DNA from: Eledone cirrhosa
Taxonomy: Eukaryota
Assembly: GCA_964016885.1 (NCBI GenBank)
Contig: OZ024740.1
Location: 240,994,001 to 241,058,000 of the forward strand
Length of the DNA: 64,000 bases
Direction: 5' to 3'
Below are positions 4,791 through 59,002 of this stretch, one piece after another. Under the pieces are notes generated by a model. That model saw only the letters and a list, made by a program, of their open reading frames with translations, was not told the DNA's origin and ran no database searches. The stretch's first letter is position 1, and each line of letters opens with the position of its first letter. A program made the translations under genes and the position numbers.

Positions 4791-7620
4791 TAAGATCAAA
4801 AGATGGTTAACAGAGTTCCATGTATTTTATTATGCGCATTTCAAAAATTAACATAATTTAGATTCTCTATCTTAAATTGCAACATAGTTAACCTTAATAT
4901 TATTAAGAACAATATACGTGATCTCTTTAACCAACATAACTTAAAAATTGAATTTGATAACAACATCAAACTAGCTAACTTCTTGGATATATCTCTTAAT
5001 CTTGACACTGGCCTATATTACCCTTACCATAAAAACAATGAGAATCTAAATTATGTGAATTTTAAATCTAACCACCCCACTAACATTAAAAATACTATAG
5101 TTAGTAATATTGGAAAAAAATATCAAATCTATCATCTAATAAAAACATCTTTGATGCTAACGCCATTACTATAATAACGCGCTTTCTAAAGCCGGTTATC
5201 CTGATAAAATCAAATACAGGAAAGAAACCAATCCTAGAAGATCTTACAGTAAAATAATTAATCATGATCATTCCAATAACTTTAATAAAAGACCTAGATA
5301 CAAAAATATAATCTGGTATAATGCTCCTTTCTCCATCTCTATTAATAATAATATTCCTAAATTATTCTTTAGTGCCTTAAATAAATGCTTCCCTCCCTCA
5401 CATATCTATAGTAAAATATTTAACAAACATACTATAAAATTTTCCTATTCGACCTCCTCCAACATCTCCAACATTATCTCTAAACACAACAATAAAATAC
5501 TAAATACTAAATCTCTTCCTTCCAACACTGAATATCATAATAATAGCAATAGTACTCCCGACGTCATTTTTAACTCTAGGCTAATTTCTGCAAACCCAAA
5601 TACGACGTCAATCGCAACTTCGTTAAATGTTCTTAATCCTAATCTAAATCAAGAAACTATTATTCCTATCGTAAATAACTTCTCCAATCCAATTCCTCCT
5701 ATAGATAACACTAGGTCACTTGTTAATAACTCTGTTAATTTCTCTAATCGCAATTGTAATTGCCCTGTTAAAAATAAATGTCCTCTCAACAACAATTGTC
5801 TTGAAAAAAAAATTAATCTATGAATGTAAAGTAATAACTGACACCAATTCCTTTACCTATTTTGGCTCCACTTCCACCTCCTTTAAAGCTCGTCTTTATA
5901 ATCATCATTCGTCTTTTAAATACCAACTTAAAAGAACCAACACGGCACTCTCAGAACTCATATGGTCCTTGAAAGACAAAAATATTAACTATAACATCTC
6001 TTGGAGGAAAGTTTGTTATGCCTCTCCATACTTGAATGCCTCTCTATCCAAAACATGTAATCTCTGTTTATGTGAGAAATTTACCATTATATCTAATTTA
6101 GATTCTAAAATAAATAGACGCACTGACTTATTTTCTCTCTGCTTGCATAAATTCCACAGAACATTCCATAAAGTATACAGCTAATATCTAATACTTTACC
6201 AATTTAAAATCCTTTTTCTCAAAGGCATATATATATATATATTTCTTTAAAAATATACCCATCTTTCTACCTTATTTCAATGTTATTTATTATACATTAT
6301 ATAATACTAGTTACTCATTCTATATCATTCCTATTTATCACTTCCCTTTCTTCCTTTTTTCCTTTTTTCTTTTAATTTCTAACCTCTAATCTGCACCTTT
6401 TCTTCCTAGATACTTCTCAATTCTCATTATTGCTCACCACAATATATCCACTCTTCCTTCTTCCATCATATCACTGGCCATAAAACTTACTATTACCCTT
6501 TTAAATACTTTATAGTATCACCTTTAAAAATCCTTCGTAAGCATAAACATTTTTTTTTTACGTTAGATTATTCGTCCTCAATTCATTATTTTATTCTCCC
6601 TTTCATGCTCGTCTAACTTTGACATATTACACATCACAATACATAAAAACAAACTTAAACCCTAACTAATCTCCTTTATTACATTATATTATTACCATTA
6701 GGAAATACTTCATAAACATACATATTTTGATGTTAGAGTCTTCTGTTCCTTAAACACTATCTCCTTCTTTGCTTTCTGCGCTCATTTGTAAACAAACTAT
6801 TTACATATATTATACATACATATTACATTACATAAAAACAAACTTAAACACTAACTAATTCCTCTAAATTCATAATTCATCCACTCTTCTACTTCTTTTC
6901 ACATTATATCCTTAATAACATTAATAGTTTTATTTTAATAATAGATATCAACAATTTCTTTCCATCGCACATATTATTAAACCCTTCAATATTCAAACCT
7001 TAATTTAATATTATTCTTAATACATATTAACTATTTCTTTTCATCGCACATATTATTAAACCCTTCAATATACAAACCTTAATTTAACTTTATTCTTAAT
7101 TTTTTCTCTTCATTAATTTTCAAATTTTTTAAATTTATATATTATCTTCCAACGGCTTTTTAACCTCTCTCTGTAAAACAATATATTTTTCTCAGTTATA
7201 AAGGGTATCTCTCTCTTTCTATCACCCATCTCTCCTCCTATCTCATCCTTCCTTATTATACTCCCCCCCCCCCCCCTCCATTCTTTACTCTCAACTCCTC
7301 CTCTTTTTCATCCCCCCCCCTCATTTTCCCCCAATATCACACATCAATCTAAAACTACTTTTCATATGTTGATTTAAAACTGCACTATCCACAAGTGTTT
7401 TTTAACCTTCATATCATGTCTCCCTATTTTATTTGACGAAAACGCAAATGTCATCGTATGATGATATTTGTTTTTGAAATGCGCATAATAAAATACATGG
7501 AACTCTTTTAACCATCTTTTGATCTTATATATTGTTTATACTCCAGTCCTACAAACTGTAGAGTGCTACTTATCCGATATCTGCATTGCTTTATTGTACT
7601 ACAATAAAACTCACCTCCTA
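4791..7620 (+). mobile_element. Penelope-like element (Naiad-type, family A), 5'-truncated, with short inverted pLTR at the 5' side
   Basis: RT thumb (FLDISLNL..YYPYHK...SNHP), Cys linker, GIY-YIG (LIYECK...YFGST..FKARLYNH; CNLCLCEK). 4791-4847 is the reverse complement of ~7471-7527. HHR in the 3' pLTR. Confidence 0.9.
7425..7495 (+). ncRNA. Type I hammerhead ribozyme (family A, U3-G8 variant)
   Basis: tattttat-TTGACGA-long stem II-GAAA-tgcgca-TA-ataaaata; palindromic stem III ATGCGCAT. Confidence 0.75.
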
Positions 7621-7972
7621 CACACACACACACACACACACACACACACACACACACACACACACACACACACACACACACACACACACATACACACACA
7701 TATATATATATATATATATATTTATATATATATGTATACATATATATATATATATATATATATATATATATATATATATGTATACATATATATATATACA
7801 CACACATATATATATATATATATATATATATATATATATATATATATATATATATATATATACATATATATATATGTATACATATATACATATATATGTA
7901 TACATATATATATATATATACATATATATATATATATACATATATACATATATATATATACATAAATGTATA
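7620..7972. repeat. (CA)n/(TA)n microsatellite
   Basis: Dinucleotide repeats seen directly. Confidence 0.98.
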
Positions 7973-7975
7973 TAT

Positions 7976-56682: not shown

Positions 56683-57107
56683 ATAATGATACATGACATA
56701 CCCTGAGATGTTAAATGGTTAAGATTTAATCAAGGTAGTAATATTAATAACTCCTGAAAATTATTTTCCTTTGAGTGCTTCTAATCTACTGTAAAACTCA
56801 TTCTTTGACATAATCATTGAATATTGTTTAACAACTTAATACATATATATATACTATATATAGAGTTATAAACTCAAACAGTCATTTACAATTAAATAGC
56901 TCAAAGAAAGAGATATTTCTGAGCCGTGAAAAACTGTATTAATTTAATTAGTATTTTTCAATCTAGCTAACTTGGTCATTTGCAATACAAACACTTATAT
57001 ACTTGTATTAGTGTTTATCATATATTAATTTGTACATATATATATATATATTACGTTGTTAAACAATATTCGATGATTATGTCTCAGGGTATGTCATGAA
57101 TCATTAT

Positions 57108-57160
57108 ATTTTGTCTGATGAGGACGTACTGTTGTACATCCGAAATATATATAATAAAAT
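57108..57160 (+). ncRNA. Type I hammerhead ribozyme (family K)
   Basis: attttgt-CTGATGA-ggacgtac tgtt gtacatcc-GAAA-tatata-TA-ataaaat. Confidence 0.9.
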
Positions 57161-59002
57161 GTAATTGATCAAAAGAACATCTATTTTATTAATACTTATA
57201 TTTTAATATATATATATATATATATATATATATATATATATATATATATATATATATATATATATATATATATATGTGTGTGTGTGTGTGTGTGTGTGTG
57301 TGTGTGTGTGTGTGTGTGTGTGCGCGCGTGTGTGTATATAGAGATGACATTAGGAAGTTAAAAAATAAAGAAACAGTTCTTTAAAACACTGTCCTGGTGA
57401 ATAAAATTTAATTTAAAAAAATCTAGGCTGCTAAACTATAAGCTTTTATATATATATATATATGTATGTATATATATATATATATGTATATATATGCGTG
57501 TGTGTGTGTGTGTATATGTGTGTGTGTGTACATACCTATATATAAAAATTACCATTATGAAATGTATCAAAAACAGAGGTTTCTGCATATACACTAATTT
57601 CAAACTCCTCCTAACACATTAGTGTGTGTGTGTATGTGACTGTTTGTGTGTGTACACCGACACACACACACACACACACACACACACATATATATATAAG
57701 AGAGAGAGAGAGAGAGAGTGAGAGAGAGAAAGAAAGATAATTAGATATAGATAGAGAGATATAGATAAGGACACACATACATTATACACACATATATATA
57801 TTATATGCTACATATCCTCTAATTTCAAAACTAATCCTAACACGTACACCATATAATCGTTGAGAGAAAAAAGTCACAGAACAAGAGAGCATGCGTATGT
57901 GCTCAAGTAATGTTTCTGAAAACACTTGTATCGATATTGAAGATAACAGATACCTTGGAAATTTTGCATAAATTGGTTGTCTTCTGGTTTGTTTTATTTG
58001 TTTTTTGTTCTGTTTTTTAGCATCTTTTGAGTAGATTATATATTTATTTATTTATTTATTTATTTGTTGGATATATAACTTATGTAACTATAAAGAAAAG
58101 ATAGCAAATCGCTACTGCATTTGTAGATATATGTGCAGGTGTGAGTTTTATATATATATATATATATATATATATATATATATATAAATAGTGAAATAGT
58201 CTTCAAGACTATACAGAGCATTTGAAGTTTTTCCAAATTGAAGGATGAGTATTTTAAACTTTATTTATCATGAGTTAAGGCTCTATTGATTTTTCCCTGG
58301 ATTTCACTAAATTCTGTTGGATGAATCTATATCCTAATTCTTTTTGAGTTGAGTTTGAATTATTTTCCCCACATCTTACGTTAACTATTTTTCCCATTTT
58401 GACGCTATAGTCACTTATATATTATGGAATACTGTTGGCTTTTTGCTACAATATTTTCTATACCTTTCATTTATATATATATATATATATATATATATAT
58501 ATATATATATATATATATATATATGAGAGACGTAAGATAAGAAAATTATAAAATTATAAAAAAATTACAAAATTGACTTACTTACTAAAATATCACTTCC
58601 AACTAATTAGTTTCTGGAATGGAGTAAATATATTTTCCGAAGAATATATAGAAAAGCATTCCGTTGTCAGGAAAGTCTATTTTCATGTAAGTTTCCAGGC
58701 ATAGCGAGGACTCTGGAAACTTATTAAAAAATAATTCAGTGGAAAGGAAATCGCGAAGCGTGGACTGAAATCCCAGCCATTGAGAAAATCACTGCCTCTA
58801 CGTCTGTGGCAAATTCAAAAAGAATCAATCACGTGACATCGAGGTCAATCAGTGGAAAGCGAGTTGTTAATAAGACAGCGGCCTGCCTACTACTATAGCA
58901 GCAGTCATGGCCAATATTGCTCGACAAATGAATTGGAGATAATTATAAAGAATTTATATCTAGTAACATTTTATATATATATATATATATATATATATAT
59001 AT

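What the first reader, a model, noticed from the sequence alone, without database searches (positions are those of the whole stretch)
4791..57215. Shared insertion architecture: palindrome-forming mini-elements in (TA)n, apparently built at each insertion
Families A, B, D, F, G, H, I, J and K show the same layout: one segment ending in a family-specific tail, and an inverted segment that lacks the tail and stops at a fixed point, usually flanked by TA-rich microsatellite. In family A the inverted arm stops at about the same place three times (4791, 10725, 21997). Arms of one insertion share variants absent from other insertions, e.g. 'gatttta' in both arms of 10725-15003 versus 'gatctta' in the other two. 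So the inverted repeat seems to be synthesised during integration. Inverted pLTRs are known for Penelope; their use by many tiny ORF-less passengers at (TA)n is my inference. This would seed long dsRNA hairpins that could be ADAR or siRNA substrates.
Basis: partly seen in the sequence, partly recalled or inferred. Interest (0 to 1): 0.72.

Follow-up and report, generated by a model that had tools for sequence, protein, structure and literature searches.

The report
Penelope palindromes built by twin priming
These lopsided mirror-image inserts in TA repeats are the known footprint of Penelope-type jumping genes, and they are likely built at each insertion when both cut DNA strands start copying the element's RNA at two fixed points and the copies meet at a fixed limit that is probably the RNA's start.

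Summary
The layout is real: 16 two-armed insertions of 8 families lie in 4789-57206, each with a tail-bearing arm and an inverted tail-less arm that starts at a fixed TA. Both arms share the same variant 147 times in 108 insertions (partner shuffles about 29). In one family 58 of 61 inverted arms start at one site and 56 of 61 junction strings differ, so palindromes are rebuilt, not copied whole. It is the published inverted-pLTR-plus-tail layout of Penelope-like elements. Five families have ORF-bearing parents (four Hydra-type, one Neptune-type), so most are stubs, not independent passengers; two ORF-less tandem hammerhead units look like true passengers. Either arm can reach further, and 4 of 16 window inserts have no overlap, which favours priming from both target strands over the published self-priming idea. 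In four families arms stop at one fixed Y|A site, likely the pLTR transcription start, not the ribozyme cut. No RNA data were available; no A-to-G excess was seen. Three other inverted structures are unrelated. This scan reported the same mechanism before on other DNA of this genome.

The parts
4789..4847 (-). A1 inverted tail-less arm (57 nt), starts at the second site next to (TA)n
   Evidence: 56/57 identical to the direct arm
4848..7621 (+). A1 tail-bearing arm: broken C-terminal RT and GIY-YIG pieces (Hydra-type CxCx5C linker), 3' UTR, pLTR, tail 7530-7621
10726..12114 (-). A2 inverted tail-less arm (1.4 kb), hammerhead core at 10822
12115..15004 (+). A2 tail-bearing arm with broken RT and GIY-YIG ORF, hammerhead core at 14818, tail to 15004
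17700..18005 (.). C2 (my letter): tail-bearing arm on minus (about 17700-17822), longer tail-less arm on plus (about 17823-18005) with hammerhead core at 17908
   Evidence: boundaries read by eye
22000..22422 (.). A3 mini-palindrome: inverted arm 22000-22166, tail-bearing arm 22166-22422, centre at the family's fixed 5' limit, hammerheads at 22096 (-) and 22234 (+)
29015..29637 (.). J1: short tail-bearing arm on minus (about 29015-29124), long tail-less arm on plus ending 29637, hammerhead core at 29554
   Evidence: overlap 43/44 identical
29661..30404 (.). B1: tail-bearing arm on minus, about 1.2 tandem 498-nt ORF-less units (29661-30275); tail-less arm on plus (30275-30404)
   Evidence: overlap 130/131
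30468..30756 (.). C1: tail-less arm on minus (30468-30628) reaches about 128 nt further 5' than the tail-bearing arm on plus (30629-30756)
   Evidence: L151
31052..31479 (.). B2, older copy: tail-less arm on minus (31052-31144), tail-bearing arm on plus (31145-31479)
   Evidence: 96/98 within against 73/81 to B1
34327..34893 (.). F1: tail-bearing arm on minus (34327-34518), longer tail-less arm on plus (34515 to about 34893) of a roughly 400-nt ORF-less tandem unit with a minimal hammerhead motif near 34650
39163..39354 (.). E1 mini-palindrome: tail-less arm 39163-39217 (-), tail-bearing arm 39218-39354 (+) starting at the fixed 5' limit
   Evidence: arms 51/51
40388..40579 (.). E2 mini-palindrome, opposite orientation; the tail-less arm reaches the fixed limit and the tail-bearing arm stops 6 nt short
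   Evidence: arms 50/51
47643..48013 (.). G1 palindrome: tail-bearing arm on minus (47643-47862), tail-less arm on plus (47864-48013)
   Evidence: arms 150/150
56424..56561 (.). G2: tail-less arm on minus (56424-56513) joined to part of the tail only; inversion without overlap
56584..56838 (.). I1: tail-less arm on minus running to the family's fixed 5' limit (56584 to about 56738; hammerhead core at 56675) joined to the tail only on plus; essentially no overlap
56857..57034 (.). B3: tail only on minus (56857-56930) joined to tail-less arm on plus (56931-57034); essentially no overlap
57051..57206 (.). I2: 34 nt of tail on minus joined to tail-less arm on plus (57082-57206; hammerhead core at 57115); no overlap
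   Evidence: (L185)

Best explanation
These are insertions of Penelope-like retrotransposons into (TA)n with one tail-bearing arm and one inverted tail-less arm, likely made when both nicked target strands prime reverse transcription on the same template at two fixed TA-containing sites 55-100 nt apart and the two copies are joined head to head. Shown: two fixed outer ends per family, independent arm lengths, varied junctions, shared variants between arms, ORF-bearing parents in five families, and one shared inner limit for both arms in four families (A -258, C about -268, E -138, I -256, counted from the tail end). Inferred: the inner limit is the transcription start inside the pLTR, so the short palindromes are run-off copies of the leader of the element's own mRNA or of a short pLTR transcript, while long copies start on the downstream pLTR of a read-through RNA. 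If the tail-side copy stops early the product is an inversion without a palindrome; if it displaces the other copy the arms overlap. B and F are likely ORF-less tandem hammerhead units that use the same machinery.
For: Arm sharing (108 of 189 de-duplicated loci had at least 25 overlapping columns): shared variants E 37, A 79, C 11, I 12, B 8 against shuffle maxima 22, 26, 5, 7, 2; diagnostic sites 110 concordant, 8 discordant; 27 private shared variants against about 1.5 expected by chance. Family E geometry: 61 of 80 insertions two-armed; inverted arm starts at -77 in 58 and at the tail end in 3; it reaches further 5' in 19, less far in 22, equal in 17; 87 of 141 arm ends fall in -139..-130 and 12 lie beyond -145. 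Non-overlapping arms: 4 of 16 in the window, plus L196, L198, L207, L154. Parents: L110 and L318 hold pLTR-ORF-pLTR units whose ATG lies 95 and 80 nt past the tail end; L307, L312, L313, L315 hold ORFs. Summed contig depth rises about tenfold at the E limit and falls past the tail end (not a copy number). PMC11167929 shows in vitro cleavage and extension of both strands and two RT start sites bounding the tail; PMC2377424 shows an internal promoter in the pLTR.
Against: No RNA evidence for the start site. The cap signature is inconclusive by hand count in family E: a cap-type extra base next to arms ending exactly at the limit in 5 cases and another base in 2, but C also follows 5 arms that end elsewhere. 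B shows no inner limit and G's centre lies 5 nt from its best initiator-like motif. Sequence alone cannot tell one RNA read twice from two RNAs of one source locus, or from a DNA snap-back step in the overlapping cases. Samples are the top 19-41 hits per search, so young copies are favoured, and 30 of the family A loci came from a query that included the junction. PMC11167929 reports no difference in start site between strands, which does not by itself explain why 58 of 61 inserts pair one start of each kind.
Confidence: 0.68

Rival explanations
1. Self-priming or snap-back: one strand folds back at its end and copies itself, making the inverted arm (proposed for Penelope elements on an antisense template in PMC3846280).
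For: Explains shared variants directly. Many junctions have 1-8 nt microhomology or short loops, and the commonest family A junction can be drawn as a 3-nt-loop hairpin.
Against: A copy of the tail-bearing strand cannot reach further than that strand, yet the tail-less arm does so in 19 of 58 E inserts (46 and 38 nt further in L252, L256) and by more than 100 nt in C and B. It cannot give inversions without overlap (4 of 16 in the window). Zero-spacer centres occur (L088, L139, L144). It may still act as a secondary step.
Confidence: 0.14
2. The palindromes move as whole units, like MITEs or whole-hairpin retrocopies, and are not rebuilt.
For: 13 of 30 family A loci from the junction-containing query share one junction, and centres with repeated 5-nt units (L026, L030) suggest some minis are copied from earlier minis.
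Against: 56 distinct junction strings in 61 E inserts. Left arms do not group with left arms: E 0.041 inv-inv, 0.048 dir-dir, 0.044 cross; A 0.054, 0.049, 0.052; within-insertion 0.018 and 0.022. In A, C, E and B recurrent one-arm mismatches occur only in pairs.
Confidence: 0.05
3. Arms came from unrelated templates and were homogenised later by gene conversion within each palindrome.
For: Close inverted repeats can convert each other (recalled); this would also give private shared variants.
Against: A family I query carrying an allele that picked out only 47 candidates returned inserts with that allele on one arm only in 11 of the 15 paired inserts. One-arm variants number 279 against 147 shared. 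A2 arms differ by a long GA expansion in one arm only. It explains neither fixed ends nor non-overlapping inserts.
Confidence: 0.06
4. The twin-priming part is right, but the inner limit is a processing site or a structural RT stop, not the transcription start.
For: In E the limit lies in loop II of the hammerhead fold and next to an acceptor-like T-rich AG. A few E arms end near the predicted ribozyme cut at -97 (L108, L141, L137, L256).
Against: In A, C and I the limit is about 100-125 nt upstream of the predicted cut (-134, -144, -153), has no AG, and arm ends do not cluster at the cut. No constant upstream exon is added at junctions. All four limits are a pyrimidine followed by A.
Confidence: 0.2

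Closest known systems
Endonuclease-bearing Penelope-like element insertions with an inverted 5'-truncated pLTR and a one-sided tail (PMC3846280, parts 1-3 of 5 and passages read; PMC8557442, passages and section 11 read)
   Same: Head-to-head inverted arm, tail on one side, hammerhead in the pLTR, partial tandems, AT-rich targets, initiator-like motif in the pLTR.
   Different: Tails are about 55-100 nt instead of 30-40; short pLTR-only palindromes dominate (69 of 80 E insertions carry nothing upstream of the limit); both arms share a fixed inner limit; the geometry argues against the self-priming model proposed there.
Hydra clade of C-terminal GIY-YIG Penelope-like elements (PMC8557442 section 11)
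   Same: Single ORF, DKT, CxCx5C linker, no CCHH, CxxC and CxH near the end, hammerhead, (TA)n targets in parents of A and E; parents of C and I match these proteins by tblastn.
   Different: RWK reads RWR or RWI; tandem units are 3.5 kb rather than under 3 kb; no tree was built.
Poseidon element of Anolis in vitro (PMC11167929, parts 1-2 of 4 read)
   Same: Two internal RT start sites bound the tail; both target strands are cut and extended; start sites lie close to the ORF start.
   Different: There the starts are inside the ORF and not homologous to the target; here they lie 80-175 nt upstream of the ATG and each contains a TA that could pair with (TA)n. Inverted products and run-off ends were not described in the parts read.
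Twin priming of L1 (one passage of review PMC9148063; the original paper not read)
   Same: A second target end primes internally on the RNA and gives an inversion joined by microhomology.
   Different: Here both starts are fixed, the second is used in most inserts, and the copies usually overlap to make a palindrome.
Non-LTR retrozymes (bioRxiv 10.64898/2026.07.22.740005, part 1 of 5 and passages read)
   Same: B (498 nt) and F (about 400 nt) are ORF-less tandem units with a type I hammerhead-like fold per unit.
   Different: They show the two start sites and inverted arms of Penelope-type integration; 'inverted' occurs in that preprint only in a reference title. B's core is non-canonical.

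Membership tests
Endonuclease-bearing Penelope-like element | Single ORF with RT and C-terminal GIY-YIG-type domain between pLTRs | tested here: met
   L110 698 aa and L318 about 790 aa between two pLTR copies; YRDD and YxC..YIG/YFG motifs read by eye. Pfam gave no family for these Hydra-type proteins; 217 database homologues, none of the 120 listed named informatively.
Endonuclease-bearing Penelope-like element | Inverted 5'-truncated copy with a tail on one side | tested here: met
   58 of 61 two-armed E inserts; A, B, C, I
Endonuclease-bearing Penelope-like element | Type I hammerhead motif in the pLTR | tested here: met
   Motif scan found A, I, J cores with stems (6 sites in the window against 0-1 in ten shuffles) and C; E has a U3:A8 variant core read by eye. 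No hammerhead family among the 150 of 237 Rfam rows shown or the 9 rows. Cleavage not tested.
Endonuclease-bearing Penelope-like element | Target-site duplication | tested here: inconclusive
   Hidden by (TA)n; matching interruptions on both sides in L081, L082, L093 of 84 inserts could be slippage
Hydra clade | DKT, CxCx5C linker, no CCHH, terminal CxxC and CxH | tested here: met
   L110: SDKT, CNCPDRSIC, CNLC, CKH; family A: SDKT, CNCPVKNKC, CNLC, CLH
Hydra clade | RWK motif and length under 3 kb | tested here: inconclusive
   RWR and RWI; ORF 2.1-2.4 kb but tandem period 3.5 kb
Hydra clade | Insertion into (TA)n | tested here: met
   Outer flanks; loose ends
Hydra clade | Placement in the RT tree | not tested
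   No reference Hydra sequences were at hand
Neptune/Nematis-type parent of family G | CX2-5CxxC linker and CCHH in the endonuclease | tested here: met
   L315 544-aa ORF with CTNRKCIIC, two Cys inside the GIY-YIG core and two later His; one locus plus broken L317
Non-LTR retrozyme (B, F) | Tandem units without ORF | tested here: met
   B 498-nt and F roughly 400-nt head-to-tail units; no linked ORF in 30 loci each with 1.5 kb flanks; 1 B and 6 F loci have a nearby PLE ORF piece; of five F cases examined one (L213) could be linked
Non-LTR retrozyme (B, F) | Active type I hammerhead in each unit; circular RNA | not testable with these tools
   F has a canonical minimal core by eye; B folds stems I and III but has a non-canonical core
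MITE or TIR DNA transposon | Symmetric terminal inverted repeats, constant interior | tested here: not met
   Ends are asymmetric and junctions vary; only 48050-48682 fits

The most novel reading that the evidence does not exclude
Twin priming on one RNA is the normal Penelope integration route: a dimeric enzyme primes both target ends at two fixed TA sites of one sense transcript, mostly on the mRNA leader, so most events yield run-off palindromes whose centres map each family's transcription start at base resolution, and ORF-less tandem retrozyme units spread by the same two-site reaction rather than by insertion of rolling-circle copies.
Probability: 0.45. Interest if true: 0.65.

Novelty: new variant of a known kind. 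Interest (0 to 1): 0.42.

Why it matters
How Penelope-like elements make their inverted repeats and tails is stated as open in PMC8557442. Here several families in one genome give the same genomic read-out: two fixed starts, one shared template, independent arm lengths and a fixed inner limit. That favours priming from both target strands on a sense RNA over self-priming and gives exact coordinates for an RNA or in vitro test. It also means such palindromes are likely to be mislabelled as MITEs or SINEs. If transcribed they would supply many long hairpins, but that is not shown.

Tried and rejected
RNA evidence: no RNA holder listed, which says nothing about expression. Rfam listed only microsatellite- or hairpin-driven miRNA-type matches below gathering scores. 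Two genome searches for family G returned nothing, probably because its words are too common; G copies were taken from flanks of other loci. Empty sites: of 84 inserts, one had a usable paralogous empty site in my loci (L127 against L075, no TA run at the empty site, but another copy of that repeat carries TA there); whether (TA)n pre-exists stays open. ADAR imprint in templates: 13 A>G against 13 T>C shared site-alleles, no support. Ribozyme cut as the 5' end: not seen in A, C, I, B. Cap-templated base: inconclusive. A separate ORF-less mini family for A: rejected, its start equals the limit in the parent pLTR. The 45143-45373 palindrome as a member: rejected; of 23 other loci none has an adjacent mirror arm (one has an opposite-strand copy about 0.85 kb away). 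My first reading of 30155-30405 as a short tail-bearing arm and of 56584-57206 as one palindrome was wrong and was corrected. Literature searches for Penelope twin priming or capped run-off palindromes found no such paper; most subscription papers are not searched, and no supplements were opened.
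Full report
Setting. The window lies in a 3.0-Gb animal genome (G000:C1:240994001-241058000) and is dense in (TA)n arrays and repeats. No call names the host. The finding defines only family A, so I re-derived the families from self-comparison and reading; letters B-K are mine. 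Coordinates such as -77 count back from a family's tail end.

Observation. Family A is as reported. Inverted arms start at one motif at 4789, 10726 and 22000, tails end at 7621, 15004 and 22422, and the GATTTTA / GATCTTA variants follow insertions, not arm side. Within-insertion identity is 161/169 and 166/169 in the core and 921/944 for the long A2 arms, against 147-161 of 166-170 and about 80% between insertions. Across 4789-57206 I count 16 two-armed insertions of 8 families (A x3, B x3, C x2, E x2, G x2, I x2, F, J). In 4 of them (56424, 56584, 56857, 57051) the tail-bearing arm is little more than the tail, so there is an inversion but no palindrome. In 5 (both C, F, J, E2) the tail-less arm reaches further 5' than the tail-bearing arm. 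Three inverted structures are different things: a mariner-type deletion derivative with symmetric ends (48050-48682), a one-off duplication of a SINE-like 3' end plus flank with the 3' ends facing inward (45143-45373), and two opposed copies of that SINE-like repeat.

Identity. A1 and A2 carry broken RT and endonuclease reading frames. Full parents were found: L110 for E (698 aa) and L318 for A, each pLTR-ORF-pLTR with a 3.5-kb period. Their DKT, CxCx5C, absent CCHH and terminal CxxC / CxH motifs fit the Hydra clade, which targets (TA)n. Related ORFs lie upstream of C (L307) and I (L312, L313); G's parent has the Neptune/Nematis linker and CCHH (L315). Of the 16 long stretches fetched, eight gave no tblastn match to my four query proteins, among them L315, whose ORF was found by listing. 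Hammerhead motifs lie in A, C, I, J, in E as a U3:A8 variant, in F, and in degenerate form in B and G. B (498 nt) and F (about 400 nt) are head-to-tail ORF-less units with no clearly linked ORF in 30 loci each; they resemble non-LTR retrozymes. The inverted truncated copy with a one-sided tail is the published layout.

Built at each insertion. From searches of the genome 108 of 189 de-duplicated loci had arms overlapping by at least 25 columns. Both arms share a non-majority variant 147 times; shuffling partners gives means of 13.7, 11.3, 0.9, 2.7 and 0.3 and maxima of 22, 26, 5, 7 and 2 against observed 37, 79, 11, 12 and 8. Diagnostic sites agree between arms 110 times and disagree 8 times. 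27 shared variants are private to one insertion, against about 1.5 expected. The effect is clear in A and E (within 0.022 and 0.018 against cross 0.052 and 0.044) and weaker in C, I and B, where arm-to-arm divergence is close to between-insertion values. Left arms do not cluster with left arms in A and E, and 56 of 61 E junction strings differ, so the unit is not copied whole. Later gene conversion is unlikely to be the cause: 279 variants sit on one arm only, and the allele carried by my family I query sat on one arm only in 11 of 15 paired inserts.

Geometry. In E, 61 of 80 insertions are two-armed; the inverted arm starts at -77 in 58 and at the tail end in 3. Fixed second starts lie near -83 to -91 in A, -89 in C, -97 in I and -68 to -78 in B (ranges reflect TA ambiguity). 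Each start contains a TA, including the tail-end start where the parent sequence continues. The tail-less arm reaches further in 19 inserts, less far in 22 and equally in 17; two of the 19 calls are inflated by alignment overrun at the centre. With the non-overlapping inserts this excludes simple fold-back of the tail-bearing strand, the self-priming family of models proposed in PMC3846280, as the only route. It matches the in vitro finding that both strands are cut and extended and that two start sites bound the tail, and resembles L1 twin priming.

Inner limit. Arm ends pile up at one site per family: 87 of 141 E ends in -139..-130 with 12 beyond -145; A at -258, C at -265 to -268, I at -256. 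B has no such limit. Short-read contigs show the same edge: summed depth is 0.04-0.24 million upstream, 2.5-4.1 million inside and about 0.001-0.013 million in the ORF region in the three large runs, with loose ends at the two starts and near the limit (not copy numbers, one study). The limits are not the predicted ribozyme cuts (-97, -134, -144, -153). Each is a pyrimidine followed by A, upstream of both start sites and of the ATG (95 nt past the tail end in E, 80 in A). Drosophila Penelope has an internal promoter in its pLTR. I infer a transcription start; the extra-base cap test was inconclusive and no RNA was available.

Mechanism. Shown: two fixed starts, shared template variants, independent arm lengths, joined ends with microhomology or filler, fixed inner limit. 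Inferred: a dimer nicks both strands in (TA)n, primes at both sites on one RNA helped by TA pairing, and the copies run 5'-ward; starting on the mRNA leader gives run-off minis, starting on a downstream pLTR gives long ORF-bearing copies such as A1 and A2. Some minis probably seed further minis (repeated 5-nt centre units in L026, L030).

Consequences. The palindromes would fold into long hairpins, but shared variants show no A-to-G excess (13 against 13 T-to-C) and expression is unknown.

Prior work. The layout is published; my searches found no paper on twin priming or run-off palindromes in these elements, within a library that lacks most subscription papers. I noted my reading before looking at earlier scan notes; several reach the same mechanism on other DNA of this and other genomes. 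They are unchecked and are not independent support. What this window adds is the multi-family tally, the parent assignments and the two ORF-less tandem families using the same two-site reaction.

Verdict. Real; a variant of a known kind; interest 0.42.

Noticed in passing
window 48050-48682: Tc1/mariner-type internal deletion derivative with about 130-nt terminal inverted repeats inside a TA run; symmetric, not the Penelope layout.
   Followed up: partly
window 45143-45373: One-off inverted duplication of the 3' end of an abundant SINE-like repeat plus about 45 nt of flank, 3' ends facing the centre; no adjacent mirror arm in 23 other loci.
   Followed up: partly
window 18104-20546: Neptune-type Penelope ORF in two frames with Pfam RVT_1 and GIY-YIG hits, directly downstream of the C2 insert but apparently not C's parent.
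   Followed up: partly
window 59279-59443 and 60806-63414: Near full-length broken Hydra-type ORF whose start lies in a pLTR with 34-nt tandem units; a 165-nt 100% identical inverted arm interrupts an F copy 1.4 kb upstream.
   Followed up: no
L110:4377-4470: Family E hammerhead has U and A at the two core positions normally C3 and G8, a compensated variant; E minis start inside loop II and so lack the core.
   Followed up: partly
L026, L030 (family A centres): Centre carries up to four copies of a 5-nt unit, suggesting repeated rounds of mini-from-mini copying or slippage.
   Followed up: no
L098, L202, L246, L254, L032: Junctions hold 19-65 nt of foreign or low-complexity filler, some with small fold-backs, as in end-joining repair.
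   Followed up: no
window 56-2725; 7975-10550 and 36790-38923; 24243-25358; 51893-55443: Broken Helitron-like Rep/helicase frames and several broken LINE-type ORFs (names from recalled motifs, no family call); both copies of one LINE end in (TA)n arrays that later took Penelope inserts.
   Followed up: no
L149, L172 flanks: Flanks beyond the TA arrays are mirror images on the two sides of the insert, unexplained.
   Followed up: no
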